Source of the DNA: Candidatus Bathyarchaeia archaeon
Lineage (GTDB): Archaea; Thermoproteota; Bathyarchaeia; Bathyarchaeales; Bathycorpusculaceae
Direction: 5' to 3'
Assembly: GCA_050010515.1 (NCBI GenBank)
Contig: JBEKKX010000001.1
Location: forward strand, 53,552 to 117,551
Length of the DNA stretch: 64,000 nt
Both the position numbers and the translations under genes were made by a program. Under the pieces are notes generated by a model. That model was not told the origin of the DNA, searched no databases, and worked only from the letters and a program-made list of their open reading frames with translations. Shown here in pieces: positions 8,333-25,775 of this stretch. Position 1 is the stretch's first letter; each line of letters begins with the position of its first letter.

Positions 8333-9766
8333 TTAGGGTTGCCATTTCTCAATGAGATACTTGGGTATCTCGCTACTGTCGCGTGGTCCAACTTGTACCT
8401 TCCAGCCGCTTAACTCTTCGATTTCGCCGCTGATTCTTGATGCTTTGCCGGGGATGATGATTGTTCTGTGTTTAACTTTGCTTTCTACGCCTGAAGCTTT
8501 TATGGCGTCGGCTACGCGTTCAGCGGTTAGTTTTCGTCCTGCGACTCCGCTGTCGATTGCTGAGCCCTCAGTTTCAACAACAATGAGATACGCGTTAAGT
8601 TTGCTGCTTTCTAGGTCTGAAGCAACTGTATAGTATGTTAATGCAAAGTTGGATGTGAAGAACACTGGAGAGTTTTCGTCCGGAGTCCCGAACACTTTGA
8701 GCCCTGGAGCAACCGCAACTGGTTTGCGTGGGTCAGTGTAAATGTTTTGTCTTAGCACAGTTATCGGTAGCAGTGACCATCCGTCAGCGCCGTGCATTAC
8801 AAGCACGTCAGCGTACCGTACAACAAGCATTGCGGCTAAGTATGCTTCACGCCATTTTATGAGGTCTTCAGCTGTTTCGCCCCTGCCCAGCCAAGCAACC
8901 ATTGGAACACCCATCAATGGGAAGCCAGCGAGTTCTTCTCCGCCTTTAGTTGCCGCTCTGCGAAGCATAGTAAAGTTGCTGATAGTATCTGGTAATCCTT
9001 CATTCGCGAATGTGCCTGGGTCTAAAACCAAGTCAGTTACACCGTAAGCCATCAATGTTTTTGCGAGTGAAACCAGCGTGTTCAGGTCATTTGGTGCAGA
9101 AACCACCAGTGGGCAACTGTACATTAAGGCGAGTTCCGCCATGTCTTTCCAGTTTTCTTTGTTAGCCGCATAAAGTAGTGGTCGTGCTTTTGGCGCCGCC
9201 ATTAATCCTGCTTCAAGAACATTGGAATTCAATGCGCACAGAATCATGGGCAGTTTAGTTGTTTCAACGACCTTTTTCACGGTTGCTTTGAATTTTTCCG
9301 CGTCTCCTGATGTTGAGCGAACGGCAACCATGTCCAGTTTTAGTGTGTAGCCGATATATTCGAAGCTATAGTTTTCTATGCGTTTAATTCGACTTGCAAC
9401 TTCCTCGCCGGACATTTGGTCAGTTACATCTATCGCGATGGCTGTCGGGTTATTATAGGTGAATTCATGGCGGTACATGACTAGTTTGCCGCCTAGTTTC
9501 CTAGCTGTGTCTCCGACGCCGACGGTGACTTCTTTGACTGCTGGCTTTAGCAGTTCTTTTAGTTGGTTGTAGGCTTTCTCGTTCTCTTTCTTTAGCAGCG
9601 GTGGGCACTGGTCAATGTTTACTTCGCGGTTGACAATTTTTGTGGCAAAAGCCATGCAGTTGTCTTGACCGCATTCTTTACAATTAATTTTTGGAAGAAG
9701 CTTGTAAACGTCTATGGGGCTTAATTCTTTTAATCCAGCTTTCTTTTTTTCGCTCATGCTATTCAA
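8333..9766 (-). CDS. cdhE: Acetyl-CoA decarbonylase/synthase gamma subunit (corrinoid Fe-S protein, large subunit)
   Basis: LPKINCKECG..NCMAFA Fe-S motif, TSNFALTY, GPRDS; position in the cdh cluster. Confidence 0.96.
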   Translation of the reverse strand: MNSMSEKKKAGLKELSPIDVYKLLPKINCKECGQDNCMAFATKIVNREVNIDQCPPLLKKENEKAYNQLKELLKPAVKEVTVGVGDTARKLGGKLVMYRHEFTYNNPTAIAIDVTDQMSGEEVASRIKRIENYSFEYIGYTLKLDMVAVRSTSGDAEKFKATVKKVVETTKLPMILCALNSNVLEAGLMAAPKARPLLYAANKENWKDMAELALMYSCPLVVSAPNDLNTLVSLAKTLMAYGVTDLVLDPGTFANEGLPDTISNFTMLRRAATKGGEELAGFPLMGVPMVAWLGRGETAEDLIKWREAYLAAMLVVRYADVLVMHGADGWSLLPITVLRQNIYTDPRKPVAVAPGLKVFGTPDENSPVFFTSNFALTYYTVASDLESSKLNAYLIVVETEGSAIDSGVAGRKLTAERVADAIKASGVESKVKHRTIIIPGKASRISGEIEELSGWKVQVGPRDSSEIPKYLIEKWQP

Positions 9767-9772
9767 ACTCCT

Positions 9773-11002
9773 TTAAGCCTTTACGCTGACCCAATCAGCA
9801 AATTTGGAAGCGTCTGCTTTTTTGCCGCTGGTTAGGTAGTTTGTAACGTCTTTTAGTGTTTTTACGGCTGCAGGGTGCATCATCATGAATAAGTCAACGC
9901 CAGTAAGCAACAGTGTTAAGGCTGTTGTTACTTCCCAGAGTGGACCTCGGAGCTCGCGTGGTTCCCATTCAGCAGACATTTTTAGCCAAGCTTCTCGTGC
10001 TGCCCAGGCATTGGTTGTTCCTGAAGACATTGGGTGAGCTAATTCAACGTCACCCATTAATCCACCGAGCCTTGCACGTTCCATATTAGTGAATGCATAA
10101 TCTAGGCCGTAGCCTAACGCGGCAGTGGTTAAGTCCATGACGATGTCTTCTCTTCCCAAAAAGTCGTATAGTCGCCTGTTAAGTTCCCGTGCCAAATTCA
10201 AGTCCATAGGAGTGAAAGATAACGCGACATGCCCGTTCTTTTTAATGTACTTTGCACAGCGCTCAACATCCATATCCCTTGTTATCGAACTAATGAGGAA
10301 ACGCTCGCCTGGGAAAGCTTCACATATGGCCTCGAAAACGTCTGCGTCTTTAACTGGGTCACCGCAACCACCGATAACTAGCGGAACATCAACGGCTTGC
10401 AGAACTTTTTCAACTGTTTTTACCGCGTCTTTTGGTGTAGCATCTTTGAGTAGCGGATCAATGCTGATTAAGTGAATTGTAACCATGTCCGCGGCGAACT
10501 TGTCCACTGCAAGCTTTGCCCATGCCGCTGGGTCACCGATCACGTCTTTGACGTGCATTTTCACCGCTTTGCTTAAGGGAACTTCCATGTCGAAAACGTC
10601 AAGAGTGATTACTGGTTTGTGAGTGGTTGGTCGCTCAAAATTGTAGAATGCAGGCGATGTCTCGCCACCTATTACAAATGATCTTCCGCGCGTTCCGCCT
10701 TCGCTTCTTGTTGCCCCAAGTCTTACTTCAGTAATCTTGTTTGGATAGGTTTCAACTGGAGGTATGAAAGCTGCCTGTAACATGGCAGTGGGTTTTCCGC
10801 CTGCTAAGCTTGGAAGCTTGATTTTGGGCATTATTTGCCCAGCCATTCCCGGCTCAAAGATTATTTCGAGTTCCTTGACGTCCATTTCGAAATCTTGCAG
10901 CTCGATCTGCTGAAATTTTGCAAGCGCTTCCAGTAAATCGCTGCTGAGTTTTAATCCTTCATCCTCTTTTTTCTTAGCGTCATCTTGAGGCAATGAGGTC
11001 AC
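9773..11002 (-). CDS. cdhD: ACDS delta subunit (corrinoid Fe-S protein, small subunit)
   Basis: LGATRSEGGTRG, GYGLDYAFTNMERARL, NAWAAREAW, MMHP. Confidence 0.95.
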   Translation of the reverse strand: MTSLPQDDAKKKEDEGLKLSSDLLEALAKFQQIELQDFEMDVKELEIIFEPGMAGQIMPKIKLPSLAGGKPTAMLQAAFIPPVETYPNKITEVRLGATRSEGGTRGRSFVIGGETSPAFYNFERPTTHKPVITLDVFDMEVPLSKAVKMHVKDVIGDPAAWAKLAVDKFAADMVTIHLISIDPLLKDATPKDAVKTVEKVLQAVDVPLVIGGCGDPVKDADVFEAICEAFPGERFLISSITRDMDVERCAKYIKKNGHVALSFTPMDLNLARELNRRLYDFLGREDIVMDLTTAALGYGLDYAFTNMERARLGGLMGDVELAHPMSSGTTNAWAAREAWLKMSAEWEPRELRGPLWEVTTALTLLLTGVDLFMMMHPAAVKTLKDVTNYLTSGKKADASKFADWVSVKA

Positions 11003-12414
11003 CGCTTCTCTGATTTATCGCTCTTTATCGTTTGGATTATGACTGTTTTAGCGTAGATTTTTGCGTCTTTGAGAATGATTTTGAATCCGCCAGCCATTAT
11101 TGGCAGTGACGCTGCTGTGGCAACCGGCATCATTGTGCCTGCTGCTTCTTCTTTAACCTCTACGGCTTCTGCTTCTGCTGCTGGAGCTTCTTCGGCTGTC
11201 CATCTTGCGACTACTGGGTGGTTCTTGTCCTTTAGGAATGCTTTCAACGCATCGACGCCCGTTGCGTTTTCTTCAGTGGCAATTTTGTCAACGACGTCTT
11301 GGGGTATGAAGTCTTTTACTCGTTCTTTAACTTCTTTTGGAAGCCAGACTATGCGGTTCCAGCCGCCGTCTGCAGATAGGAACTTTTTGCTACGCATGTA
11401 TTCAATTGACATTCCGTGGAAGCCGTCTATCTGTCGTCCGCCAGCGGTGGAGTCAGCGATTGTTGAGAATGGTAAACCGTTTACTGTTACGCCTTTGAAG
11501 CTTCTGTTTACGACGCCGAAGCCGTCTACTTCTGGAATGTAGAATGCTACTGCCTCGAAGCATCCGCATGAAGTGTGTGGGTGATCGAACGCTGTGTATA
11601 GCCAGACTTGGTTCACTTCGCCCATAGTGCGTTTTTTAGCCATTTCGTTAACGCCGCTAAACTCGCCCTTTTCAGCGTTTATTAATTGGCCTCTGTCGAT
11701 TGCGAATACTGGTCCTTTAGGATCAATGTTTGCTGAGGCTTTTCCGTCAAACCAGCTGATGGCGCCGCAGTTAGAATATCTTTGCGGGGTGATGATGCAA
11801 ACATGGGTTGGAGCAAATGATTGGCATAAGGTGCAACCGTAAAATTTGTCGACGTCTTCGTCTTTGAGGCCTCTTGCTTTAGCGTCACGTGATTCGTAAT
11901 CTTGCATTGCTTCTGGGTAGAGTTCTGACAATTTAGCAGGATCTGTTATGAAGGTAACTTGTACTTTCTCGATTATGGGGAGTTCGCTTTTGAATAAGCG
12001 GCAGAGTACTTTGCCGATTGGTTCAAAACTGTTTAAGCCTTTTTGGAATGATTTTTTGCTTAAGCGTATCCAGATGTCATAGCGCTGGTTTAAGTGCATC
12101 AAGCCCTCAACGTAGTTTAAATAGCCATGAATTCGTCTTTCAATGACGCCTTCAAGGCCTTGATCGAGAGTTGCACCTGCAGCTTCAACAAGAATGCCGA
12201 GTGGGTATGCGCCGCCTTCTTTGAGGTCTTTTATGTCTGGGCCTATAATGGTGATTTTGCCGTCTTCTATTTCGTCCATTGGTTTTACTTTTGCTAGTTC
12301 AAACTTTTCTTTAACTGATGGACCGCCAAATTCTACTTGCATGTCGTTTCTTCTAATGCGTTCGCCTTCGTAGATTACGCCAACATCAACAGGTATATCT
12401 TTAAACATTGACAT
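10999..12414 (-). CDS. cdhC: ACDS beta subunit (acetyl-CoA synthase); likely ATG at 12414
   Basis: YGERIR, CTLCQSFAPTHVC, HTSCGCFE A-cluster ligands; acidic Ala/Glu linker near the C-terminus. Confidence 0.96.
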   Translation of the reverse strand: MSMFKDIPVDVGVIYEGERIRRNDMQVEFGGPSVKEKFELAKVKPMDEIEDGKITIIGPDIKDLKEGGAYPLGILVEAAGATLDQGLEGVIERRIHGYLNYVEGLMHLNQRYDIWIRLSKKSFQKGLNSFEPIGKVLCRLFKSELPIIEKVQVTFITDPAKLSELYPEAMQDYESRDAKARGLKDEDVDKFYGCTLCQSFAPTHVCIITPQRYSNCGAISWFDGKASANIDPKGPVFAIDRGQLINAEKGEFSGVNEMAKKRTMGEVNQVWLYTAFDHPHTSCGCFEAVAFYIPEVDGFGVVNRSFKGVTVNGLPFSTIADSTAGGRQIDGFHGMSIEYMRSKKFLSADGGWNRIVWLPKEVKERVKDFIPQDVVDKIATEENATGVDALKAFLKDKNHPVVARWTAEEAPAAEAEAVEVKEEAAGTMMPVATAASLPIMAGGFKIILKDAKIYAKTVIIQTIKSDKSEKR

Positions 12415-12418
12415 TTTT

Positions 12419-12961
12419 TTATTGTCCTCCTTCAAATTTTGAAGATATGACTGTGAGATTTGCAGCCCATTCCTCGAGGGTTGCGTTTGGGAAAGACCAG
12501 CTTGCATGCGGATGATACAAGTTGTCCAGAGTCATGGTCTTTTGGCAAGGAGCGAAGTGCATTAGTCCTGAAAGGATTAGTTCTTCCATGTAGAATGGGA
12601 GACCTACAAACATGACTAGGTCGTATGGGCCTTTGCCGTCAAGTCCTTTCCATTCGGGGTCAACTATACGATTGCCGATGTCCATGGCAGACATGAAGCC
12701 TGCTGGTTGGTAACCGCGTTTTAGGAATTCGCCGACCATGTGCGCTGTAGCGACCACTGGAACTTTTGATGCGTTAGCGAAGTCAATCAGGTACTCGATT
12801 AGTTGTTTGCCTTCCATGTATCGTTCAGTAGCATAGCTGCCCACGATGAGCAGTGGACGGGAGGCTTTTTTGATCATTGCTACTGCTATCTCAGGTTTCT
12901 GTATGGGGTTTGCTTTCTTTGTTGCGGCTATCTCTGCACATTGCCAAGGTTCACATGCCAT
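12419..12961 (-). CDS. cdhB: ACDS epsilon subunit
   Basis: EPWQCAE, KKASRPLLIVG, WKGLDGKGPYD, HPHASWSFPN; lies between cdhA and cdhC. Confidence 0.93.
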   Translation of the reverse strand: MACEPWQCAEIAATKKANPIQKPEIAVAMIKKASRPLLIVGSYATERYMEGKQLIEYLIDFANASKVPVVATAHMVGEFLKRGYQPAGFMSAMDIGNRIVDPEWKGLDGKGPYDLVMFVGLPFYMEELILSGLMHFAPCQKTMTLDNLYHPHASWSFPNATLEEWAANLTVISSKFEGGQ

Positions 12962-12967
12962 ATCTTA

Positions 12968-15316
12968 TCACTCCTTCATTTTACGAATCATTCTTGGAAG
13001 CAATGTCGGGTCAGGAATTACTGTTTCCTTCCAATCGTGTGCTTCCAGTATCTTGGTAAATTCATCTTTAAGTGTCATTGGCACATCAGCCATCGTTCTC
13101 ACCAACAAATGCAAATCCTGCGGCATGCATCCGTAGTGGCGTTTGTGTAGGTCAACGTAGTGGCTTAGTTTTATGCTGCGGCCTTTCCATGTGTCGTTTG
13201 GTCTTATGCAGAGCTTTGCGATGGAGACCATTGCTTCTTGTGGCGTTTCAACTGTTTGGAACAGGTGTTCAGGTGCTGGGCCAACGTTAACTTTGTTGCC
13301 TGTGCGGGCATCGTAAACTTCCCAATCTTCAGGCTTGTCTTCTCTGCCAAGGAGCATACGCCTGTATTTTGCACCGTGTGGACCAACAAGCACTGGGATT
13401 CCTAAGCGCCAGAATCCAGCTGCGATTGCCGCGGCTTTCTGTGAGTATGCACCCCACGCAAGGCCGACTGCACCTAAGCGGTTGTATATGTAATCGGCGA
13501 TTTCCTCGTAGTTGCCTCTGAGGTTGCGTTTGGCAAAAATGTTTGCTACTTTGATGGCTGCGCCTGCTATATGCGAGTTTGCTACGCATGAACCGACGTT
13601 TAGCACACCTCCAGCTTCGAATCCGCCTGGGAATTCCTCGTAGAGTGTTTTGCCTTCGCTGTTGCGGTAGCTGCCTGCAGACATGGCTGAGCATCCAGAT
13701 GTTACAACGATGTATCGTCTGCTGGCGAATTCTCTGCATATGTCGTAAACATCTTTGCCTCCGTGCGGATAATTGCTACATCCTACAACTGCCAATATGC
13801 CCGGGATTTCCCCGAGGACGATTGGGCTACCGACGTTTCGGATTTCGACATCTTGCACTGCTCCTCTACCGGCACGGCAAAAGTTATTTTCTTCAAGCAT
13901 GAATTTTTCGCCAGCTTTCACTATGAAGCTGTGAATGTTTAGTTTAACTGGACATGCTTCTTCGCATCTTCCACATCCAATACAGTACTCATATAGGTCG
14001 GTTAGTTGTGCAAGGTTTCCTTCGGCTGCTGCCTTTAGGGCTTGTGGGATTTTAAGGTCTTGTGGACAGCTTCTGCGGCACATGTCGCATTGCCTGCACG
14101 TCTTAGATAATTGCTTAATCTCATCTAAGCTTGGAAGATTGTTCATTTTTTTGCGGATTGGAGCGATTTGTTGTGCTACTCTTACGGCTACTTCGCCGAC
14201 TTTTTCTGGATCAAGGATCAACACGCCTGCCGCTTTGCCGCTTACAAGGTCAGCGACGATTTCGTCCGCTGAGTCATCTGTGCGGTTCTTGAAACCCATG
14301 CAGTTCTTCTCTGATGCGGCGATGACTGGAGCGTGAACTTTGCGTGCTTCGTCAAAAGCGTCTGTTCGGACACATTGCTCATCTAAAACGACAACGTCTG
14401 CGAATCCAGCTCTTATGAATCGTAGTTGCCAACTGATTGGGCCGACGATTTTGCCTCGGTTATAGTACCTTGTGATGTCGAAGGCGGTGCAGCATAGACC
14501 AATTACTTCTATTTTGTCATCGACTTTGTTATCTTTTGCGTAGTCTATGATTCCAACGGATGGAATTACGTTGTGACCAATGCACATGATAACTGGCTTA
14601 GAGGTATCGACACTACCTATGCCTAGTTGTATGAGAGGAGCCTCAGGGTCAGCTTTTGGAAAGCCCAATGTCGAAATTTGGATAATATCTCCGACTTCCA
14701 TGCCAACATGATCTATCATACCTACGTGGAAGGCTTTGGATTCAAAATCAAGGTTGTTGCCTTCTTGCCCTGTGTGCGCTACTGCTACTGCTTGAGTAAT
14801 TTGCTCTTCAGCGTACTCCAAAACTTCCTCCATGTCTCCAAGAGTCTGAGGCTTTATACCAGTAACAAGTCTGGTAACTGGCGCTTCAACTTTGATGTTT
14901 AAGCCACCTACATCTAAGGGGTATCGGCTGCCGTATTTTTCGACCAAGTGATGAAGCATGTGACGGGCATGAGCCGTGTGGGTTGCTGCACCAATGCAAC
15001 AGGCCAAAAGCACTATACGTGAAGACTGAGCACCGATGTCTAAGCCGCATGCACCACGCTTTCCAGCTGTCAAATCGCATTTTCCAAAAGTGCAAAGACA
15101 GCAAAGATCACAATCAGGCATATAGAAAGGTTTGTACCTGGTGAGGAGCCTCATGTCCCAGTCTCGCAGGGTACTCATTGATGGCATTGGAGTTGGACCC
15201 ATGGATTCCGTCCAGTTGTCAGTGGCAACTTTGCCTATAGATAATTCAAGATTTTTAATGAGACTACTGCTAGTCTTCATTTCGTCAATTTTTATACTAA
15301 CGTTTTTACTAGTCAA
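12968..15316 (-). CDS. cdhA: ACDS alpha subunit (Ni-CO dehydrogenase)
   Basis: CDLCCLCTFGKC, HTAH, GHN, GLCCT, DEQC, two ferredoxin motifs, GCSN, SGCS, VGSC. Confidence 0.97.
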   Translation of the reverse strand: MTSKNVSIKIDEMKTSSSLIKNLELSIGKVATDNWTESMGPTPMPSMSTLRDWDMRLLTRYKPFYMPDCDLCCLCTFGKCDLTAGKRGACGLDIGAQSSRIVLLACCIGAATHTAHARHMLHHLVEKYGSRYPLDVGGLNIKVEAPVTRLVTGIKPQTLGDMEEVLEYAEEQITQAVAVAHTGQEGNNLDFESKAFHVGMIDHVGMEVGDIIQISTLGFPKADPEAPLIQLGIGSVDTSKPVIMCIGHNVIPSVGIIDYAKDNKVDDKIEVIGLCCTAFDITRYYNRGKIVGPISWQLRFIRAGFADVVVLDEQCVRTDAFDEARKVHAPVIAASEKNCMGFKNRTDDSADEIVADLVSGKAAGVLILDPEKVGEVAVRVAQQIAPIRKKMNNLPSLDEIKQLSKTCRQCDMCRRSCPQDLKIPQALKAAAEGNLAQLTDLYEYCIGCGRCEEACPVKLNIHSFIVKAGEKFMLEENNFCRAGRGAVQDVEIRNVGSPIVLGEIPGILAVVGCSNYPHGGKDVYDICREFASRRYIVVTSGCSAMSAGSYRNSEGKTLYEEFPGGFEAGGVLNVGSCVANSHIAGAAIKVANIFAKRNLRGNYEEIADYIYNRLGAVGLAWGAYSQKAAAIAAGFWRLGIPVLVGPHGAKYRRMLLGREDKPEDWEVYDARTGNKVNVGPAPEHLFQTVETPQEAMVSIAKLCIRPNDTWKGRSIKLSHYVDLHKRHYGCMPQDLHLLVRTMADVPMTLKDEFTKILEAHDWKETVIPDPTLLPRMIRKMKE

Positions 15317-18713: not shown

Positions 18714-18863
18714 CTACAAGTAGCCTAAGTTTTTCATTATCGTTTTCACTGAAACATACGCCTCGTTATCGGATGGCAAGTCAAGCAGTGACTGCCCATT
18801 AAGAACGTGCTCGTCCAGTTGCTCATCAGCAGCCATCTTGCTCAATACTTAAACTTCAAAGTT
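18714..18863 (-). pseudogene. Relic of a cooC-type gene 3' end
   Basis: Translates to LSKMAADEQLDEHVLNGQSLLDLPSDNEAYVSVKTIMKNLGYL*; 30/43 identical by manual alignment to the C-terminus of 22254-23039; 1-nt frameshift upstream (LKFKY). Confidence 0.85.
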
Positions 18864-18957
18864 CGCGTCCGAAATAAAAATCCATTCGTCAATGTGCCCA
18901 GCCGTTTCTCGCGCAGCGCTCTAAATTCGAAAAGCTCTTATAGCACTTATAGATGCA

Positions 18958-18975
18958 TACCTACCTAGGTAGGTA
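18958..18975. promoter_or_regulatory. Perfect 18-bp palindrome TACCTACCTAGGTAGGTA between TATA-like elements and the ATG at 18985
   Basis: Read directly from the sequence; built from TAGG/CCTA units. Confidence 0.55.
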
Positions 18976-18984
18976 GGTAGTAAA

Positions 18985-19632
18985 ATGGTATTGCTCATAT
19001 GTCAACATTGTGGCTATAAATGGGATTACCAAGGCGAGAACGAGCATTATGCCACCTGCCCTACATGCCGTTACAAGGTCAGGATCCCTGAAGAAAAAGC
19101 TCAAATGTTACGTCGAAAAGGGTTGGATATGGAGTTAAAAAGCAAATTCTCATTAAAAGAGCAACCTGTAAAATTGCGTGGTATTGCTGGAATAGTGAAT
19201 AAGACAATAGAGGACTACCAACACGACAAAAGCATGTTAATTCAAATCCTTTTGAGATTGCAAAAGAATTTCGGGTGGCTTCCGATGGAAATGCTATTAG
19301 AAGTAAGCAAACAGCTGGGAATACCTATCAATCAAGTATACCAAGTCGCAACCTTTTACAAAGTCTTCTCTCTCAGTCCTCGAGGGAGACATCTAATAAG
19401 GGTTTGCACGGGAACTTCCTGTAAAGTGAGAGGTGCGCCAACAATCCTTGAGAAGTTACAGAGCTTTCTCGGCATAGATACGGGTGAAGTCACCGCAGAC
19501 GGCAGATTCAGTCTTGAAACAGTTAACTGTGTAGGCGGTTGCGCTCTCGGCCCAATGATGACTATTGACGGCGAATACTATGGAAACTTAAAGTTGCTCA
19601 CCGTGAAAAGAATTCTATCTAAATACACGTAG
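18985..19632 (+). CDS. NuoE/HydC-like [2Fe-2S] subunit fused to an N-terminal Zn-ribbon
   Basis: CQHCGYKW...CPTCRYKV; VATFY, VCTGTSC, VNCVGGCALGP. Confidence 0.9.
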   Translation: MVLLICQHCGYKWDYQGENEHYATCPTCRYKVRIPEEKAQMLRRKGLDMELKSKFSLKEQPVKLRGIAGIVNKTIEDYQHDKSMLIQILLRLQKNFGWLPMEMLLEVSKQLGIPINQVYQVATFYKVFSLSPRGRHLIRVCTGTSCKVRGAPTILEKLQSFLGIDTGEVTADGRFSLETVNCVGGCALGPMMTIDGEYYGNLKLLTVKRILSKYT

Positions 19633-19645
19633 CAGGTGAATAAAC

Positions 19646-21574
19646 ATGGAAACCGTTAAGTGTATACGATCACCTAAAGACCTCGAAAAGCTTCGCGAAG
19701 AAATCAAGTCCAAGAGAAAACCGAGTAAATCCAGCGTTTCGGTTTGTGTTAGCACAGGCTGTGTTGCGCTTGACGCTCCGAAGGTTAAGGAAGCTTTCAT
19801 AGCCGAACTGGAGAAGCAAGGACTAAAAGATCAAGTGGAAATTAAGGAAACAGGATGCTTGGGTTTCTGTGAACAGGGACCAAGGGTAACGATCTACCCA
19901 GAGGAAATCTGTTATTTTAAGGTTAAGCCTGAAGATGTCCCGGAAATTGTTTCTAAAAGCATTCTTGAAAAGAAAGTTGTGGAACGGTTGCTATACAAAG
20001 ACCCAGCCACGGGTAAAGGAGTGCAGAAGCTTGAGGACATACCCTTCTACAAATACCAGCTTAGATTGCTTCTGGAAAATAACGCGAAAATAGACCCAAA
20101 GAATATCGAAGATTACATTGCTCTAGGGGGATACAGCGCCCTTGCCAAAGCCCTCTTCGAAATGACGCCTGAACAGGTGGTTGAGGAAGTTAAAAAGTCA
20201 AAACTGCGGGGAAGGGGTGGAGGAGGATTCCTAACGGGGTTAAAGTGGGAAACCACGCGGAACGCACCTGGCGAGCCTAAGTATGCCATCGTTAACTGTG
20301 ATGAAGGAGACCCAGGAGCATTTATGGATAGATCTCTGATGGAAGGCAATCCTCATAGTGTGCTTGAAGGTCTCATAATAGGCGCGTATGCCATTGGAGC
20401 CACTGAAGGCTTTGTTTACGTTAGGGAAGAGTATCCTATAGCTGTAGAAAACATATCCACAGCTATAAAGCAGGCTGAAGAATACGGGTTGCTCGGCAAA
20501 GACATTATTGGCTCAAGTCTAAGCTTTAAGGTTAAGGTTCACAAGGGTGCAGGAGCTTTTGTCTCAGGAGAATCTAGCGCTCTTATGACAGCAATCGAGG
20601 GGAAGGTTGGTGAACCCAGACCCAAATACGTTCACACGGCAGTTAAAGGCCTTTGGGATAAGCCTAGCCTCCTCAACAACGTTAAGACGTGGGCTAGCGT
20701 CCCTCTAATAGTCCTTAAAGGCGCTGAGTGGTTTAGGAGCATAGGAACCCAAGGCAACAGCGGAACTATGATCTTCTCCCTCGTTGGGAAAGTTAATAAC
20801 ACAGGTTTAGTTGAGGTGCCTATGGGAATAACTCTTCGGGATTTAATCTTTAAGATAGGTGGAGGCATTAGAGACGGCAAGAAGTTTAAAGCTGTTCAGA
20901 TCGGAGGGCCGTCTGGAGGCTTCATCCCAGAGCAACTCCTCGATATTCCAGTAGACTACGATGAACTTGTAAAAGTTGGCTCAATGATGGGCTCTGGAGG
21001 CATGGTAGTCATGGACGAAGACACCTGCATGGTAGATGTGGCTAGATATTTTGTCGATTTCCTCCTCGAGGAATCCTGCGGAAAATGTATCCCCTGTCGT
21101 GAAGGTTTGAGAGTGCTCTCCAGCATTCTAAGCGATATCTGCGCTGGCAAAGGGAAAAGTGAGGACATACAGACAACTGAAGAGATAGCTGAAACAATGA
21201 GGGAGACTTTACTCTGCGCATTGGGCAGAACCGCAGCAAATCCTGTCCTCACATCTCTGAAGTATTTCAGAGACGAATGGGAACAGCACATAATAGAGAA
21301 ACGTTGCCCAGCTAACGCTTGCAAAGCTCTGATAGATTTTTACATAAATCCAGAGAAATGTCAAGCTTGCCTCCTTTGCTTAAAGGAATGCCCAGCAGGA
21401 GCTATTCAAGGCGACAAGGATCAGGTTCATTGGATTGATCAAGAAAAATGCATAAAATGTGGGACATGCTATGAAATTTGCAATTTCCATGCGGTAAAAA
21501 AGCTTTCGGGAGAGCCTATTCCACCTCCACCAGAAGGAATGAAACCAATTCGAAAATTGAAAGGAGAGAACTAG
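19646..21574 (+). CDS. NuoF/HydB-like NADH/FMN-binding subunit, long bifurcating-type architecture
   Basis: N-terminal Trx-like 2Fe-2S (CVSTGC, GCLGFC), LRGRGGGGF, NCDEGDPGAFMDR, ESCGKCIPCREG, two C-terminal [4Fe-4S] motifs. Confidence 0.92.
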   Translation: METVKCIRSPKDLEKLREEIKSKRKPSKSSVSVCVSTGCVALDAPKVKEAFIAELEKQGLKDQVEIKETGCLGFCEQGPRVTIYPEEICYFKVKPEDVPEIVSKSILEKKVVERLLYKDPATGKGVQKLEDIPFYKYQLRLLLENNAKIDPKNIEDYIALGGYSALAKALFEMTPEQVVEEVKKSKLRGRGGGGFLTGLKWETTRNAPGEPKYAIVNCDEGDPGAFMDRSLMEGNPHSVLEGLIIGAYAIGATEGFVYVREEYPIAVENISTAIKQAEEYGLLGKDIIGSSLSFKVKVHKGAGAFVSGESSALMTAIEGKVGEPRPKYVHTAVKGLWDKPSLLNNVKTWASVPLIVLKGAEWFRSIGTQGNSGTMIFSLVGKVNNTGLVEVPMGITLRDLIFKIGGGIRDGKKFKAVQIGGPSGGFIPEQLLDIPVDYDELVKVGSMMGSGGMVVMDEDTCMVDVARYFVDFLLEESCGKCIPCREGLRVLSSILSDICAGKGKSEDIQTTEEIAETMRETLLCALGRTAANPVLTSLKYFRDEWEQHIIEKRCPANACKALIDFYINPEKCQACLLCLKECPAGAIQGDKDQVHWIDQEKCIKCGTCYEICNFHAVKKLSGEPIPPPPEGMKPIRKLKGEN

Positions 21575-21575
21575 A

Positions 21576-22202
21576 ATGAAGAAAGTCATTACTTTACAGA
21601 TTGATGATAAAGAGGTTAAGGCAGAGGAAGGAAAAACCATTTTAGAGGCAGCGCAACATGCAGGTATGGAAATCCCAACCCTATGCTGGTATGAAGGACT
21701 GGAACCCTACGGTGCCTGTCGATTTTGCAGTGTAGAAATCGAAAAAAAAGGAAGGGCTCAAGTGGTAGCTTCATGTTGCTATCCAGCGGAGGAGGGGTTA
21801 AAGGTAAAAACCAGATCTCCCAAAATCGTTAAAATAAGAAAGACCATACTAGAATTAGCTGCCACATCTGCGGGAGAAGATGTCAGTAGCAAAATGAGGG
21901 CGTTGGCCAGCGAATATAACGCGGATTTATCTCGATTCAGGTCAAACGCACCATTGTCCCCAACAAAATGCATCCTTTGCGGACTATGTGTACGTCGTTG
22001 TATTGAAGCAAATTGGGAAAGCGCTATAGGATTCACTGGTAGAGGAATATACCGATGCATTGCACTTTTCCCAGAAAAGGCAGGCCTCTGCTCGACATGT
22101 AGTTATTGCCGTGACGTATGCCCCACTGGCAGAACTTGTTCCACATTTGGTCCTCGTCCTCCTTTCCCTCGAATTAACGATGTCCTCGCAGGGAGAAAAT
22201 GA
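21576..22202 (+). CDS. NuoG/HydA N-terminal-like Fe-S subunit (2Fe-2S plus 2x4Fe-4S) without a catalytic domain
   Basis: IPTLC...GACRFC...ASC; CILCGLCVRRC; CSTCSYCRDVCP; only 208 aa. Confidence 0.85.
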   Translation: MKKVITLQIDDKEVKAEEGKTILEAAQHAGMEIPTLCWYEGLEPYGACRFCSVEIEKKGRAQVVASCCYPAEEGLKVKTRSPKIVKIRKTILELAATSAGEDVSSKMRALASEYNADLSRFRSNAPLSPTKCILCGLCVRRCIEANWESAIGFTGRGIYRCIALFPEKAGLCSTCSYCRDVCPTGRTCSTFGPRPPFPRINDVLAGRK

Positions 22203-22253: not shown

Positions 22254-23039
22254 TTATTGATGTATGTAACCCGTTGCCCTCATTATCGCTTTAACAGAAA
22301 GATACGCGGCGTTGTCAGAAGGCAAGTCAAGCAGCGACTTCCCGTTAAGAACATAATCATCTAACTGTTCATCCTCAGCGATTTTTCCCAAAAACTTGAA
22401 CTTCAAATCAGCTTCAGCCTGTTTGCCTAGTTCTAGTGGAAAACGGTAGCCGCCTATCAAATAGAAGTTATCAAACTTCATGTCAACTTCTTTAGTTATT
22501 CTGACAGCTCGTTTCACATGGTCAAAAGATTTCTTTGAATGATCAAGAATATCGAATATATCGTTAACATTCGAAGTAATACGCCTATTCAGGTTTTCAA
22601 GTCCGGCTGGAGAGTCAATAAGTATGTACATGTAATTTTTAGTTAACGATTCTAAAGCACCTTTTAACGCAGCGTTTGGCATGCAATAGCAACCTTCAAC
22701 CCATTTAGTGCCGACTGCAAGGAAGTCAAAATTTTTACTTTCATACAAGCCATTTTCCCAAATCCTGCTTTCAATACGCTCTGTTGGAGGAACGCCGACT
22801 GTGGTGCCTCCTTGCTCAATGAACGTGCTGACAAGCAACTCTGAAATGGTTGATTTTCCAGCCTCTTTAAGGTCTATTCCAAGCATTTCAGCAAGATTCT
22901 GGTCAGGGTCAGCATCAACCAGCAGCAAAGGCGCTTGCCCAGCTTCGATAAAGGATTTAGTCATTAGAGCCGTGAAACTGGATTTTCCTGTTCCGCCACG
23001 ACCAATAGTTACCAGAGTTTTCATTTTGGTAAACCTCAA
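22254..23039 (-). CDS. cooC: CooC/AcsF-type Ni-insertion ATPase (paralog 1; likely ATG at 23024)
   Basis: GRGGTGKS, DADPDQNL, GCYC, IDSPAGLE. Confidence 0.82.
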   Translation of the reverse strand: MRFTKMKTLVTIGRGGTGKSSFTALMTKSFIEAGQAPLLLVDADPDQNLAEMLGIDLKEAGKSTISELLVSTFIEQGGTTVGVPPTERIESRIWENGLYESKNFDFLAVGTKWVEGCYCMPNAALKGALESLTKNYMYILIDSPAGLENLNRRITSNVNDIFDILDHSKKSFDHVKRAVRITKEVDMKFDNFYLIGGYRFPLELGKQAEADLKFKFLGKIAEDEQLDDYVLNGKSLLDLPSDNAAYLSVKAIMRATGYIHQ

Positions 23040-23824
23040 GATGCTATTGCTTTTTTCTTAAGCAAAAGCTCGCATATATTATCTATGGTTTTAACTGCTG
23101 AGATTTCCTTGTTTTTAAGGGGCGTTTCACCAAGCATATCAGCTTCGACAATTTTCTGGTCAAAGGGCACAAAGGTGAGCAGGGACAAACCGTTTTTTTC
23201 AGCAAAACTGCGTATAGCTTCCCTCTGAACATCGTTCATGACCCTGTTTCCTATGAGGTAGAGTTGCTTCATCCCAGCGGCTTTAGCCATGTCATGTATA
23301 TGCTTGGCGATTTCCAGCGATTTCAAGTTTGAATCAGCAACAATGAGCAATGCATCCACTTGTCTGGCTGTGCCTCTGCCAATATTCTCAACGCCAGCCT
23401 CCAAATCCAAAACAACCGCCTCGTCACGTTCCACAACCAGATGTCTAAGCAAAGCGCGGATGACAGCGTTTGGAGCACACATGCATCCTGCACCCATCGA
23501 ATGCACTGTACCCATAACAATCAAATTCACGCCAAGCGGAGTGCTGACCGAGTAGTCACGGACGATGTCGTCAACGGTGAATTGTAAACGGTAAACTCCA
23601 GAGTAACCAGTGCTTGTTTTAGATTCAACAAGAACCTTATTCTCTGAAATAGGCACAATTTTGCGACTTTCCTCAGTGGATAAGCCTAAAGTCAAACCGA
23701 GATTTGGAGAGGAATCTGCATCAATCGCTATAGTTTTCAATCCACGCTCAGCAAAACCGCGGGCTAGGCCGCCTGCAATCAGGGTTTTACCGACACCGCC
23801 TTTACCAGAAACAGCAACTTTCAT
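23036..23824 (-). CDS. cooC: CooC/AcsF-type Ni-insertion ATPase (paralog 2)
   Basis: SGKGGVGKT, DADSSPNL, GAGCMC, DLEAGVE. Confidence 0.9.
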   Translation of the reverse strand: MKVAVSGKGGVGKTLIAGGLARGFAERGLKTIAIDADSSPNLGLTLGLSTEESRKIVPISENKVLVESKTSTGYSGVYRLQFTVDDIVRDYSVSTPLGVNLIVMGTVHSMGAGCMCAPNAVIRALLRHLVVERDEAVVLDLEAGVENIGRGTARQVDALLIVADSNLKSLEIAKHIHDMAKAAGMKQLYLIGNRVMNDVQREAIRSFAEKNGLSLLTFVPFDQKIVEADMLGETPLKNKEISAVKTIDNICELLLKKKAIAS

Positions 23825-24380: not shown

Positions 24381-24713
24381 ATACCCCGCATTTGTAGATA
24401 AGCATGTTTTCAGCCTTCTGGATAAAAAATTTTACTAAATAAATGATCTTAAATCCAAATTAAACCACTACAAAAAACGGAGGACCATTTTTTTCATTAC
24501 TCAAAACAGGAACGGACGTATAGCACCAGCCTCCTCCTTTGCGTAGTTCTGCTTTCACACTGTCAGCTGTGCGATTTTACCTTAGCGCAAAATTTTTTCT
24601 TTAGTTTGTGCTTCCCATGAGCGCAAAAGAATAGTCGTCATAGAGCAAAGATGAAACTTTCAAGATTGCTAGCATTTAATGTTTATATATAATTGGTCGA
24701 TTATGCTACCGCC

Positions 24714-25775
24714 ATGAGCTCCAAAAAATTTGGCTTTGAGGACTCCCTTTTAACTGAAGTTGTTCAAACCGGAAAATGTGCAAGTTGCGGCACGTGCGTC
24801 GTCGTCTGCCCATTCGGTAGCCTTGAACTTGCCAAGGGAAAACCCAATTTGGTGAAAGAATGCAAGGTCTGCGGCATATGCGCTCAAGCCTGCCCCAGAT
24901 ACAGTTGGGATGTGGCGAAAGCAGAGAACTTTGTTTTCGGCAGGGTAAGAAAACCTGAAGAGGAATTCGGAGTTTTCCGCAGAATAGCTATAGCCCAAGC
25001 AAAACCCAGTGACATTCAGAAGGTTCGCCAAGACGGAGGAGCTGCCACCGCAATGCTGGTAGCTGCTCTGCAGAACGGACTAATCGACGGAGCCGTCGTT
25101 TCAGGAAAAAGCCAAGAAAAACCCTTCCTTCCGGTCCCGATTCTCGCCACGACGCCTCAGAAAATCGTCGAGGCAGCAGGGACAAAATACTCCTTTTCCT
25201 CTGCGCTTCTCGGCTTGCCCGAAGTGATTAGGCAGAAAAAGACTCAAATCGCGTTCGTAGGTACACCCTGCCAAATTCACGCGGTAAGAAAGATGCAGAT
25301 GACCGGCGTGAAAAAGTTCAGTGCGCCAATCAAGTACCTTGTGGGGCTCATGTGTTCAGAATGCTTCGATTACGAAGGGCTCATGGAAACCCACATAAAA
25401 GGCAAACTCGGCATTAACCTGAACGATATTACAAAAATGAACATTAAAGGAAAAATGCTCGTAACGACGTCCGCAGGAATTACAGCTATTCCCCTTGCAG
25501 ACATAAAACCGTACGTTAGAAAAAGCTGCAGCGTATGCGAAGACTTCAGCTCCGAACTCGCAGACATCTCAGTCGGCGGACTGGGACTTGACGGCTGGAC
25601 ATTCACGATTATCCGAACAGAAAAAGGCGAAGAACTATTTACAAACGCCGAAAAAACAGGATTCTTGGAATCAAAGCCGCTGGAGCAAGGAGCCTTCTCG
25701 AAGGGGTTACTGCTTAAGCTTTCAAAGAAAAAACGCGATACAGCCGCAGCCGCTCAAGCTCAGCCAAAGCAATAA
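24714..25775 (+). CDS. FrhB/FdhB/FpoF-family F420-binding flavoprotein with an N-terminal 2x[4Fe-4S] domain (ORF track starts at 24693)
   Basis: CASCGTC...CP, CKVCGICAQACP; QDGGAAT, AGTKY, VGTPCQ, GLMCSE, CSVCEDF, ADISVGG. Confidence 0.9.
   Translation: MSSKKFGFEDSLLTEVVQTGKCASCGTCVVVCPFGSLELAKGKPNLVKECKVCGICAQACPRYSWDVAKAENFVFGRVRKPEEEFGVFRRIAIAQAKPSDIQKVRQDGGAATAMLVAALQNGLIDGAVVSGKSQEKPFLPVPILATTPQKIVEAAGTKYSFSSALLGLPEVIRQKKTQIAFVGTPCQIHAVRKMQMTGVKKFSAPIKYLVGLMCSECFDYEGLMETHIKGKLGINLNDITKMNIKGKMLVTTSAGITAIPLADIKPYVRKSCSVCEDFSSELADISVGGLGLDGWTFTIIRTEKGEELFTNAEKTGFLESKPLEQGAFSKGLLLKLSKKKRDTAAAAQAQPKQ

What the first reader, a model, noticed from the sequence alone, without database searches (positions are those of the whole stretch)
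18985..22202. HydABC-type electron-bifurcating module with no catalytic subunit, inside a CODH/F420 neighbourhood
Seen: the beta subunit has the long architecture (Trx-like 2Fe-2S, FMN/NADH site, 4Fe-4S, DTC...H...CPANAC metal site, 2x4Fe-4S). The alpha-like subunit is only 208 aa, lacks the His/Cys N5-type cluster, and has no H-cluster or Mo-bisPGD domain. No hydrogenase or FDH gene is adjacent. Known: this HydB architecture marks NAD+/ferredoxin-bifurcating enzymes. Inference: a plug-in bifurcating unit that docks on CdhAB (CO to Fd + NADH) or on the nearby FrhB-like protein (F420H2/NADH/Fd exchange).
Basis: partly seen in the sequence, partly recalled or inferred. Interest (0 to 1): 0.65.

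Follow-up and report, generated by a model that had tools for sequence, protein, structure and literature searches.

The report
Partner-less bifurcating flavoprotein module beside CODH
Three genes of a peat-soil Bathyarchaeia archaeon encode the NADH- and ferredoxin-handling core of a known family of electron-bifurcating enzymes without a catalytic subunit, and relatives that fuse the same kind of core to the CO dehydrogenase/acetyl-CoA synthase suggest it feeds or drains that carbon-fixing enzyme.

Summary
Window 18985-22202 holds three tightly packed genes, bfuC, bfuB and bfuA. They encode a complete BfuBC (HydBC-type) core. BfuA is a minimal 208-aa subunit with one [2Fe-2S] and two [4Fe-4S] sites. 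It has no His-ligated cluster and no catalytic domain. Its closest solved relative is WorA, the "plug" subunit of WorABCSL (PDB 9MQX).

No hydrogenase, formate dehydrogenase, WOR, POR or GltD gene lies in the 64 kb.

This type of trio is a conserved, transcribed, stand-alone operon across Bathyarchaeia and Hadarchaeales, in varied contexts.

Its BfuB is the sister paralog of a Bathyarchaeial BfuB that is fused to CdhB, the CODH epsilon subunit. That fusion sits inside the cdh operon, next to a BfuA-FrhB fusion. Short-BfuA trios also lie inside CODH or CODH/ACS operons of several bacteria and of Methanospirillum.

In the window the trio lies antisense between cooC and cdhA, flanked by a cooC relic.

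My best reading (about 0.5) is a Bfu module that exchanges electrons between CODH/ACS, NAD(H) and ferredoxin, possibly with F420 through the nearby FrhB-like protein. Physical docking and bifurcation are inferred, not shown.

It is a new variant of a known kind and moderately interesting.

The parts
18968..18979 (+). (GGTA)3 leader motif, 6 nt upstream of the bfuC start codon. It is the conserved part of the local 18-22 bp palindrome.
   Evidence: It occurs once in the window (expected 0.09). It is present in 25 fetched loci, always and only directly upstream of bfuC of partner-less trios.
18985..19632 (+). bfuC (HydC/NuoE-like, [2Fe-2S] C1 site) with a clade-specific N-terminal zinc ribbon and a basic linker (residues 1 to about 70).
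   Evidence: PF01257, 170 bits, residues 72-214. Best PDB matches are bifurcating HydC/BfuC chains. The zinc ribbon CxHCxYxWDY...YATCPxCRYKV is conserved across Bathyarchaeia trios.
19646..21574 (+). bfuB (long HydB-type). It has the B5 [2Fe-2S], FMN/NADH site, B1 [4Fe-4S], B2 Cys3His site and B3/B4 2x[4Fe-4S], then a Pro-rich C-terminal tail.
   Evidence: The tail AVKKLSGEPIPPPPEGMKPIRK is homologous to the linker of BfuB::CdhB fusions.
21576..22202 (+). bfuA, a minimal Type-2 form with clusters A1, A2 and A4 only, and a conserved tail GPxPPFPxxDDVLAGR.
   Evidence: best match is WorA, 9mqx_A. In alignment A1 all 12 Cys ligands are invariant and the tail is conserved.
18717..18872 (-). cooC relic: a C-terminal fragment of cooC1 with an internal stop, upstream of the trio.
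   Evidence: tblastn gives 31/52 identical residues to CooC1 residues 208-259, E=6e-18, and 77% nucleotide identity over 128 bp. The same relic lies between cdhA and the trio in L001 and L091.
22254..23824 (-). cooC1 and cooC2 (CODH nickel-insertion ATPases), convergent with the trio.
   Evidence: CbiA/ParA/NifH-family hits. Synteny is conserved in L001, L007, L089-L101, L116 and L129.
8333..15316 (-). cdhA (12968-15316), cdhB/epsilon (12419-12961), cdhC, cdhD and cdhE: archaeal CODH/ACS, the candidate redox partner.
   Evidence: Pfam hits. TIGR00314 cdhA scores 1151 bits, above its cutoff. CdhA carries an internal 2x[4Fe-4S] domain at residues 398-460.
24693..25775 (+). FrhB/FpoF-like F420-binding protein with an N-terminal 2x[4Fe-4S] domain; second candidate partner.
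   Evidence: PF04422, PF04432 and Fer4. NCBIfam FrhB subfamily 245 bits and FpoF 142 bits, both below their cutoffs. In L089/L090 the same position holds a complete F420-Bfu trio.

Best explanation
The trio encodes the BfuCBA core of a HydABC/Bfu-type flavin-based electron-bifurcating enzyme.

Shown by sequence: BfuB binds FMN and NAD(H). BfuB and BfuC carry all the clusters that define the bifurcating core. BfuA is a bare three-cluster wire (A1-A2-A4) that ends in a conserved tail.

Inferred: the module is not a complete enzyme on its own. It works with the CODH/ACS encoded next to it. Electrons pass between the Fe-S clusters of CdhA/CdhB and the Bfu core. At the core they are split towards, or gathered from, NAD(H) at the FMN and ferredoxin at the B3/B4 domain.

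Two wirings are possible:
- (a) CODH docks at cluster A4 of BfuA, as predicted for Codh-Bfu. The reaction would be CO + NAD+ + Fd(ox) <-> CO2 + NADH + Fd(red).
- (b) As the fusions in the sister clade suggest, the C-terminal B3/B4 domain and tail of BfuB sit against CdhB/CdhA, so that CODH takes the low-potential electrons in place of free ferredoxin. A4 would then receive mid-potential electrons from a separate donor, with the neighbouring FrhB-like F420 protein as the obvious candidate.

Either wiring would let NADH, and perhaps F420H2, pay part of the cost of reducing CO2 to CO.
For: Core identity: domain content and full-length alignments to solved bifurcating enzymes, with all ligands kept. 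BfuA is closest to WorA of WorABCSL and, like WorA, lacks A3. Non-bifurcating homologues lack clusters B2-B5 (PMC9304861).

BfuA is under constraint: its 12 Cys ligands are invariant and the tail is conserved across 21 sequences of 60-93% identity. This argues that the A branch is in use.

Link to CODH/ACS:
1. Natural BfuB::CdhB fusions of 812-824 aa exist in Bathyarchaeia. They lie in operons ordered cooC2-cooC1-cdhA-bfuA::frhB-bfuC-bfuB::cdhB-cdhC-cdhD-cdhE, with no separate cdhB.
2. These fused BfuBs, together with one unfused F420-Bfu BfuB, form the sister clade (support 100/100) of the partner-less clade that holds the window (100/98). The two together have support 100/98.
3. The C-terminal tail of the window's BfuB is homologous to the fusion linker.
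4. cdh or cooC genes lie within 10 kb of the trio in at least four different arrangements: the window clade, L112/L114, L125 and L136/L137.
5. Short-BfuA trios lie on the same strand inside CODH or CODH/ACS operons in L032 (cooS..acsB-cooF-bfuCBA-acsC), L058/L071 (bfuBA-acsB-acsC-RACo-cooC-acsD), L075 (cooF-cooS-bfuCBA-cooC, Methanospirillum stamsii), L065 and L082. Of the 29 long-BfuA rows, only one has CODH/ACS genes, and it shares its locus with a short trio.

The site where ferredoxin binds, next to B3/B4, has been solved for an archaeal Bfu enzyme (PMC12018979).

The genes are transcribed in wetland, soil and sediment metatranscriptomes.
Against: The fusions belong to a paralogous clade. 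One relative (L089/L090) carries both paralogs side by side, so their roles may differ.

Most lineages keep the trio as a self-contained operon far from cdh, for example L084, L085, L087, L100, L104, L115 and L119-L124.

In the window the trio is antisense to cdhA and cooC and is bracketed by a cooC duplication. The adjacency therefore began as an insertion, not as a co-transcribed operon.

The enrichment of CODH/ACS neighbours among short-BfuA loci is only borderline when phylogeny is ignored (12/57 against 1/29, p=0.052). The phylogenetically paired test had no power.

No CooF-like connector is adjacent. The only one lies 15 kb away.

No structure of a complex could be predicted with these tools.
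Confidence: 0.5

Rival explanations
1. Free-standing redox hub. The trio is a soluble ferredoxin:NAD(H) oxidoreductase. Its A4 end serves diffusible or changing partners, such as a second ferredoxin or polyferredoxin, a diiron protein, NfnAB-linked pools, or several enzymes in turn. It has no dedicated tie to CODH/ACS.
For: It is a stand-alone three-gene operon in unrelated contexts in most lineages. Among 93 neighbouring ORFs no family is shared by more than 4. nfnAB is adjacent in two arrangements (L002/L003 and L107/L110). A ferritin/rubrerythrin-like protein lies directly downstream in L119-L124 and L130; compare the predicted Rub-Bfu in PMC9304861. Partner-less trios also occur in Dehalococcoidia next to dnaG-rpoD (L010/L014). 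The trio coexists with a hard-wired F420-Bfu in L089.
Against: It does not explain the recurrent cdh/acs neighbourhoods, the sister relation to CdhB-fused BfuB, or the shared tail/linker. A plain Fd:NAD+ enzyme would not need the strictly conserved BfuA.
Confidence: 0.25
2. Split F420-Bfu. The only missing piece is the FrhB-like protein encoded 2.5 kb downstream. Its 2x[4Fe-4S] domain docks on A4, and the enzyme couples F420H2/F420 to NAD(H) and ferredoxin. CODH/ACS is a neighbour only.
For: BfuA::FrhB fusions occur in the sister clade and in L152. In L089/L090 a full F420-Bfu trio occupies the exact position of the window's FrhB-like gene, between the GNAT gene and cofC. F420 biosynthesis genes flank it. 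F420-Bfu is a predicted type in the literature (PMC9304861).
Against: An FrhB-like gene is near the trio only in the window's own synteny group. The window's FrhB is only 24-31% identical to the FrhB parts of the fusions, and it looks like an FpoF-type protein able to work with ferredoxin alone. L001 and L094 carry a different FrhB paralog at that site. L089 has the partner-less trio in addition to a complete F420-Bfu.
Confidence: 0.12
3. Misplaced HoxEFU or NuoEFG. The trio is the diaphorase of a group 3d [NiFe] hydrogenase, or the NADH input module of the Fpo/Nuo-like membrane complex, whose other genes lie elsewhere in the genome.
For: Published Bathyarchaeia genome papers annotate such clusters as NuoEFG or Hox (Bathyarchaeum tardum, PMC10477458). 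Termite-gut Bathyarchaeia have true hoxEFUYH clusters (PMC7886697). The best NCBIfam names are HoxE, NuoF and HoxU.
Against: All those NCBIfam scores are below the curated cutoffs: HoxE 146 against 224, NuoF 460 against 559, HoxU 115 against 333. BfuA lacks the His-ligated cluster (N5/A3) through which NuoG and Type-3 Bfu enzymes pass electrons on. BfuB has the extra clusters that non-bifurcating NuoF/HoxF lack. Pfam-annotated contexts show no hydrogenase or nuo/fpo genes next to the trio. The tally of 93 further neighbouring ORFs lists no hydrogenase or nuo/fpo family among its 25 commonest families.
Confidence: 0.08

Closest known systems
WorABC 'plug' of the bifurcating tungsten aldehyde oxidoreductase WorABCSL, Acetomicrobium mobile (PDB 9MQX; PMC12318220)
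   Same: It has the same BfuBC core with the same cofactor sites. WorA is the best PDB match of the 208-aa BfuA and also lacks cluster A3, so electrons must enter or leave through A4.
   Different: WorA (247 aa) has a C-terminal zinc finger and an adaptor helix that recruits WorS. The window's BfuA stops about 22 residues after the last cluster motif and has a different conserved tail. No worSL or other catalytic genes lie in the operon. BfuC carries an extra N-terminal zinc ribbon.
Codh-Bfu, predicted Type-2 Bfu enzyme of Firmicutes (Schut et al. 2022, PMC9304861); not yet purified
   Same: A Bfu core with a short BfuA that is genetically associated with a Ni-CODH.
   Different: In Firmicutes, bacterial cooS and its Fe-S subunits are sandwiched between bfuB and bfuA on one strand. 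Here the partner would be the archaeal five-subunit CODH/ACS, the trio is antisense to it, and no CooF-type connector is adjacent.
F420-Bfu (predicted Type-1 Bfu; PMC9304861) and its CODH-integrated form in Bathyarchaeia
   Same: Its BfuB is the sister clade. It shares the Pro-rich C-terminal segment and the same chromosomal neighbourhood of cooC, cdh, RLAN/RimK and DHS genes.
   Different: There BfuA is fused to FrhB and BfuB is fused to CdhB. In the window both proteins are free, and BfuC has a zinc ribbon that the integrated form lacks.
[NiFe]-HydABCSL of A. mobile (PDB 7T2R) and [FeFe]-HydABC (PDB 8A6T, 7Q4V, 7P5H)
   Same: They give the highest-scoring BfuB and BfuC matches and have the same bifurcating core.
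   Different: Their A subunits are 570-690 aa with clusters A3 and A5 and a catalytic or partner-binding domain.
HoxEFU diaphorase and NuoEFG of complex I
   Same: They have homologous folds for all three subunits, and the names used in current annotations come from them.
   Different: They lack the B2-B5 sites. They have the His-ligated cluster in the G/U subunit. They are encoded with their hydrogenase or membrane-arm genes.

Membership tests
Bfu (BfuABC / HydABC-type electron-bifurcating) family | BfuB with an FMN/NAD(H) site and the B1 [4Fe-4S] cluster | tested here: met
   PF01512 141 bits and PF10589 104 bits. GRGGGGF and CGKCxPCREG...LCALG are aligned to 7t2r_B and 9mqx_B.
Bfu (BfuABC / HydABC-type electron-bifurcating) family | Extra BfuB sites that non-bifurcating NuoF/HoxF lack: N-terminal B5 [2Fe-2S], the B2 Cys3His site, and the C-terminal B3/B4 2x[4Fe-4S] | tested here: met
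   PF01257 at residues 25-104 and the Fer4 dicluster at 566-615. All ligands line up with solved BfuB chains, including DTC / H / CPANAC. The criterion comes from PMC9304861.
Bfu (BfuABC / HydABC-type electron-bifurcating) family | BfuC with the C1 [2Fe-2S] cluster | tested here: met
   PF01257, 170 bits. It aligns to HydC/BfuC chains with four conserved Cys.
Bfu (BfuABC / HydABC-type electron-bifurcating) family | BfuA N-terminal domain with A1 [2Fe-2S] and A2; Type 2 has A4 present and A3 and A5 absent | tested here: met
   PF13510 and two CxxCxxCxxxC motifs. There is no HxxxCxxCxxxxxC. The alignment to WorA is gap-free.
Bfu (BfuABC / HydABC-type electron-bifurcating) family | A third-substrate module, either a catalytic domain in BfuA or extra subunits in the same gene cluster | tested here: not met
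   The operon has none, and no candidate other than CODH/ACS and the FrhB-like protein lies in the 64 kb.
Bfu (BfuABC / HydABC-type electron-bifurcating) family | Tightly coupled three-substrate (bifurcating) activity | not testable with these tools
   This needs an enzyme assay.
Codh-Bfu (predicted) | CODH genes within the same gene cluster as bfuABC | tested here: inconclusive
   cdhA-E and cooC flank the trio, but on the opposite strand. The junction shows an insertion scar. Same-strand integration occurs in relatives and in bacteria.
F420-Bfu (predicted) | BfuA fused to an FrhB-type F420/FAD domain | tested here: not met
   BfuA ends at residue 208. The FrhB-like protein is a separate gene 2.5 kb away, beyond three opposite-strand genes.
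HoxEFU of bidirectional [NiFe] hydrogenase | hoxYH in the cluster; HoxU with a His-ligated [4Fe-4S]; scores above the equivalog cutoffs | tested here: not met
   There is no hydrogenase gene or motif in the window. HoxE scores 146 against a cutoff of 224 and HoxU 115 against 333. The His cluster is absent.
NuoEFG of respiratory complex I | NuoG with N5 and a molybdopterin-like C-terminal domain; NuoF without extra clusters; nuo membrane genes nearby | tested here: not met
   NuoG matches only residues 8-94 (89 bits against a cutoff of 470). NuoF scores 460 against 559. No nuo or fpo genes are in the window.

The most novel reading that the evidence does not exclude
The trio may be a detachable version of the hard-wired CODH/ACS-Bfu-F420 supercomplex seen in related Bathyarchaeia. 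In this reading:
- The B3/B4 domain and Pro-rich tail of BfuB dock on CdhB/CdhA.
- Cluster A4 of BfuA receives electrons from the stand-alone FrhB-like F420 protein.
- The flavin splits F420H2-level electrons between NAD+ and the CODH C-cluster.

CO2 would then be reduced to enzyme-bound CO without free low-potential ferredoxin, hydrogenase or Rnf. The zinc ribbon of BfuC and the conserved (GGTA)3 leader would tune synthesis of the module to the redox state.
Probability: 0.2. Interest if true: 0.8.

Novelty: new variant of a known kind. Interest (0 to 1): 0.55.

Why it matters
Bathyarchaeia are among the most abundant archaea in anoxic sediments and peat. They are thought to run an archaeal Wood-Ljungdahl pathway, but it is unclear where many of them, which lack obvious hydrogenases or Rnf, get the very low-potential electrons that CODH/ACS needs.

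A Bfu module that ties CODH/ACS to NADH, and perhaps F420, would change the energy budget of the carbonyl branch. It would also be the first archaeal CODH-linked bifurcating system.

No Bfu core without a genetically linked third module has been characterised. The trio is small (three genes, about 120 kDa) and its relatives have been expressed in Pyrococcus, so the question can be tested directly.

For annotation, the result shows that the usual 'NuoEFG' or 'HoxEFU' labels on these archaeal genes are misleading.

Tried and rejected
- **Genome-contig scan.** Close relatives had to come from the metagenome scan.
- **AlphaFold2 model of BfuA.** Mean pLDDT was 61, and the whole cluster domain and tail were below 50. 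I judged it useless for the tail, so I ran no fold search.
- **Tail as an FrhB remnant.** I tested whether the BfuA tail is a remnant of the first strand of FrhB. The alignment was not convincing, so I dropped the idea.
- **MetF-like 241-aa protein (26755-27480).**
- **RHH reading of the BfuC N-termini in L006, L133 and L011.** There is no PDB match, so the reading rests on the sequence pattern only.
- **Paired test of short BfuA against CODH adjacency.** The phylogenetically independent-pairs test had too few informative pairs (median p about 1).
- **Unknown gene of about 195 aa.** It lies 4 bp after bfuA in one sub-lineage and I considered it as a fourth subunit. It is absent from the window and from most lineages and is decayed in L087/L088.
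- **The palindrome upstream of bfuC as the conserved element.** Rejected: only the (GGTA)3 half is conserved.

Full report
**What is there.** Window 18985-22202 holds three same-strand genes separated by 13 and 1 bp.

- The first product (215 aa) is a NuoE/HydC-type thioredoxin-like [2Fe-2S] protein (PF01257, 170 bits). It has an N-terminal extension of about 70 residues that contains CxxC...CxxC.
- The second (642 aa) has an N-terminal thioredoxin-like [2Fe-2S] domain, the FMN/NADH domain, SLBB, the NuoF-type [4Fe-4S] domain and a C-terminal 2x[4Fe-4S] ferredoxin domain.
- The third (208 aa) has a [2Fe-2S] domain (PF13510) and two CxxCxxCxxxC motifs.

**Family assignment.** The 642-aa protein aligns end to end with the B subunits of solved bifurcating enzymes: A. 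mobile NiFe-HydB 7t2r_B (782 bits), WorB 9mqx_B (758), HydB 8a6t_B and 7q4v_B, and NfnB 9n5u_B. All cluster ligands and the Cys/His/Cys/Cys site are kept. True NuoF chains match only the central 400 residues, at about 340 bits.

Schut et al. (PMC9304861) define the Bfu family by exactly this BfuBC core. They note that non-bifurcating homologues lack clusters B2-B5.

The 208-aa protein matches WorA of WorABCSL best (9mqx_A; identity of 9MQX confirmed). Against HydA it lacks the stretch of about 18 residues that carries the His-ligated cluster. WorA lacks the same cluster A3. This is the 'Type 2' BfuA of Schut et al. (A1, A2 and A4 only), which in all described cases needs extra subunits for the third substrate.

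NCBIfam names the three proteins HoxE, NuoF and HoxU, but every score is below the curated cutoff.

**No catalytic partner in the window.** Upstream on the minus strand lie cdhE-D-C-B-A, then a 94-aa ORF, OsmC, a NifX-like gene, an Lrp-type regulator and an MBL-fold gene. Downstream on the minus strand lie two cooC genes and a GNAT gene. After those come an FrhB/FpoF-like gene on the plus strand, cofC, a 241-aa unknown, cofE and others. The region from 32 to 64 kb is housekeeping. No ORF has NiFe large-subunit motifs. A HydN/CooF-type polyferredoxin lies at 37716-38384.

I could not search the rest of the genome because that tool was shut.

**The trio is a conserved unit.** BfuA-sized relatives number in the thousands. 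The top 120 are almost all 206-209 aa and are labelled Bathyarchaeia, Heimdallarchaeota or Hadarchaeales. In an alignment of 21 of them (60-93% identity), all 12 Cys ligands are invariant, and so is much of a C-terminal tail, GPxPPFPxxDDVLAGR.

Pfam-annotated contigs and 80 metagenome loci show the same bfuC-bfuB-bfuA order everywhere. The surroundings vary: unrelated genes in L084, L085/86, L087/88, L100, L115 and L118; nfnAB in L002/L003 and L107/L110; a ferritin/rubrerythrin-like 388-aa protein in L119-L124 and L130; an unknown protein of about 195 aa, 4 bp downstream, in L084, L103, L104, L108 and L111-114. A Pfam tally of 93 further neighbouring ORFs found no family in more than four of them, and no hydrogenase among the listed families.

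Metatranscriptome contigs from wetland, soil and sediment cover all three genes at 90-100% identity. The DNA runs that hold the stretch are peat and wetland metagenomes.

**The local junction.** Between the MBL gene and bfuC, at 18717-18872 on the minus strand, lies a fragment with 31/52 identical residues to the C-terminus of the intact cooC1 at 22254-23039. It has an internal stop. The same relic lies between cdhA and the trio in L001 and L091.

Other Bathyarchaeia have the order cooC2-cooC1-cdhA on one strand (L112, L169, L171). The trio therefore entered, antisense, at the cooC1/cdhA junction of an ancestral cooC-cdh operon, and about 150 bp were duplicated. The whole group with 75-97% BfuA identity keeps this arrangement.

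**Evidence that ties this kind of module to CODH/ACS.** I tested it by searching with the window's BfuB and CdhB joined end to end. Natural proteins of 812-824 aa cover 99-100% of that query at 62-65% identity and carry both PF01512 and PF02552. Two of them are labelled Bathyarchaeota by NCBI.

Their loci read cooC2-cooC1-cdhA-bfuA::frhB-bfuC-bfuB::cdhB-cdhC-cdhD-cdhE, with gaps of 2-15 bp and no separate cdhB. L171 shares the window's flanking RLAN/RimK and deoxyhypusine synthase genes.

In a careful IQ-TREE analysis, the five fused BfuBs plus one unfused F420-Bfu BfuB (L089_12) form a clade with support 100/100. That clade is sister to the 29 partner-less BfuBs, including the window (100/98). 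The two together have support 100/98. The next outgroups include L136 (beside cdhE and cooC) and L058 (inside a spirochaete acs operon). WorB and NiFe-HydB are more distant (a broader quick tree is).

The window's BfuB ends in AVKKLSGEPIPPPPEGMKPIRK. This segment aligns with the linker AVKKLSGEPAPPVIPEEHRWIKRPWQ that joins BfuB to CdhB in the fusions, and the joint falls at the N-terminus of CdhB.

Outside the archaea, short-BfuA trios sit on the same strand inside CODH or CODH/ACS operons:
- L032, Firestonebacteria: cooS..acsB-cooF-bfuCBA-acsC
- L058/L071, Spirochaetota: bfuBA-acsB-acsC-RACo-cooC-acsD
- L075, Methanospirillum stamsii: cooF-cooS-bfuCBA-cooC
- L065 and L082

Within Bathyarchaeia, cdh or cooC genes lie within 10 kb of the partner-less trio in at least four arrangements.

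Counted over tree rows, 12 of 57 short-BfuA loci carry CODH/ACS genes, against 1 of 29 long-BfuA loci. Fisher's p is 0.052 without correction for phylogeny. The trait needs 11 changes on the tree, and the paired test had no power. The statistical case is therefore suggestive. The fusion and the operon integrations are the stronger evidence.

**The F420 side.** In L089/L090 (BfuA 97% identical to the window's), a second complete trio with a 494-aa BfuA::FrhB fusion occupies the position, between the GNAT gene and cofC, where the window has its stand-alone FrhB-like gene. L001 and L094 carry yet another FrhB paralog there. The window's FrhB-like protein has its own 2x[4Fe-4S] domain and is only 24-31% identical to the FrhB parts of the fusions.

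**Mechanism.**
- *Shown by sequence:* NAD(H)/FMN, B1, B2, B3/B4, B5, C1, A1, A2 and A4 sites.
- *Established for the family:* mid-potential electrons travel along the A clusters to B1-FMN-C1. There they are split to NAD+ and, through C1 and B3/B4, to ferredoxin. Ferredoxin binds within 13 A of B3 and B4 (PMC12018979; PMC12318220).
- *Inferred for this locus:* the module serves CODH/ACS in one of two ways. In wiring (a), A4 is wired to the Fe-S domain of CdhA, as in the Codh-Bfu scheme. In wiring (b), which the position of the CdhB fusion right after the B3/B4 domain suggests, CODH takes the low-potential electrons in place of free ferredoxin. A4 is then fed by a separate donor such as the FrhB-like protein.

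I put 0.5 on a functional tie to CODH/ACS, 0.25 on a free-standing hub with variable partners, 0.12 on a split F420-Bfu unrelated to CODH, and 0.08 on a Hox/Nuo module with distant partners.

**Comparison with what is known.** Membership of the Bfu family is met for every sequence-defined feature. The one unmet feature is a genetically linked third module. Hox and Nuo membership fail on tested features.

Only Schut et al. 2022 mention a Codh-Bfu, for Firmicutes and from genomes alone. Bathyarchaeia papers call these genes NuoEFG or Hox. Several earlier notes of this scan describe the same partner-less trio in other Bathyarchaeia, and Bfu modules inside bacterial acs operons. I used them as leads and re-tested the ones that mattered.

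**Verdict.** This is a real, conserved, expressed variant of a known enzyme family. Its most likely role is to link the archaeal CODH/ACS to pyridine nucleotides. The role is not proven.

Noticed in passing
window 18968-18979 (+); same position in L001, L004, L084-L092, L094, L097, L101, L104, L112, L114, L118-L125, L130: A (GGTA)3 tract lies 3-12 nt upstream of the bfuC start codon. It is conserved across Bathyarchaeia trios of 60-97% protein identity, while the rest of the upstream DNA is not. It occurs nowhere else in the window or in the 168 fetched loci. It co-occurs with the BfuC zinc ribbon and is absent from Hadarchaeales. It is a candidate operator or translational element.
   Followed up: partly
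window 18985-19190 (BfuC residues 1 to about 70); L136/L137 BfuC N-terminus; L006/L133/L011 BfuC N-terminus: The N-terminal extension of BfuC differs by lineage. Most Bathyarchaeia have a zinc ribbon. L136/L137 have a Fur-family winged-helix DNA-binding domain (PDB Fur 9ire, E=2e-11). L006, L133 and L011 have an RHH-like segment, which is unverified. The core subunit may double as a nucleic-acid-binding regulator.
   Followed up: partly
window 18717-18872 (-); L001 7135-7284 (-); L091: A cooC1 3'-end relic brackets the trio together with the intact cooC1. It is an insertion scar, and it shows that the trio entered an ancestral cooC2-cooC1-cdhA operon in antisense orientation.
   Followed up: yes
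L169/L170 4735-15542; L171 4793-15515: Some Bathyarchaeia have a cdh operon with an integrated Bfu module: cdhA-bfuA::frhB-bfuC-bfuB::cdhB-cdhC-cdhD-cdhE, with no free epsilon subunit. This predicts a CODH/ACS physically joined to an F420-, NAD(H)- and ferredoxin-type bifurcating core.
   Followed up: partly
L089 12405-16277 (-); L090 12888-16760 (-): A second, complete F420-Bfu trio (BfuA::FrhB of 494 aa) lies 2 kb from the partner-less trio, at the site where the window has a single FrhB-like gene. In the same relative BfuA is 97% identical to the window's but BfuB only 83%, which hints at recombination between the paralogs.
   Followed up: no
L084 8628-9209; L112 8602-9213; L108, L111, L113, L114, L103, L104: A Cys-rich protein of about 195 aa with no Pfam match starts 4 bp after bfuA in one Bathyarchaeia sub-lineage. 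It is decayed in L087/L088 and absent from the window.
   Followed up: partly
L119 10690-11856 and the same gene in L121, L122, L124, L130: A 388-aa protein with an N-terminal ferritin/rubrerythrin-like diiron domain lies about 70 bp downstream of the trio in one lineage. It recalls the predicted Rub-Bfu type.
   Followed up: no
L050 8510-10831 (Methanophagales); L144-L167 (Desulfobacterota-like metagenome contigs): Short BfuA subunits (224-252 aa) are followed by a protein of 527-550 aa with a glutamate-synthase FMN-domain match. In the bacterial set, BfuB is fused to a GltD/NfnB-like domain (about 1060-1120 aa). This Bfu type was not assigned here.
   Followed up: no
window 37716-38384 (-): A stand-alone 222-aa HydN/CooF/DmsB-type protein with 18 Cys (polyferredoxin) lies 15 kb from the trio. 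It is a possible Fe-S connector of the kind that CooF or WorS provides elsewhere.
   Followed up: no
L010 and L014 (Dehalococcoidia): Partner-less trios with a 202-204-aa BfuA also occur in bacteria. There they lie directly upstream of a dGTPase-like HD gene, dnaG and rpoD.
   Followed up: no
window 26755-27480 (+): A conserved 241-aa protein lies between cofC and cofE (93-100% identical in relatives).
   Followed up: partly
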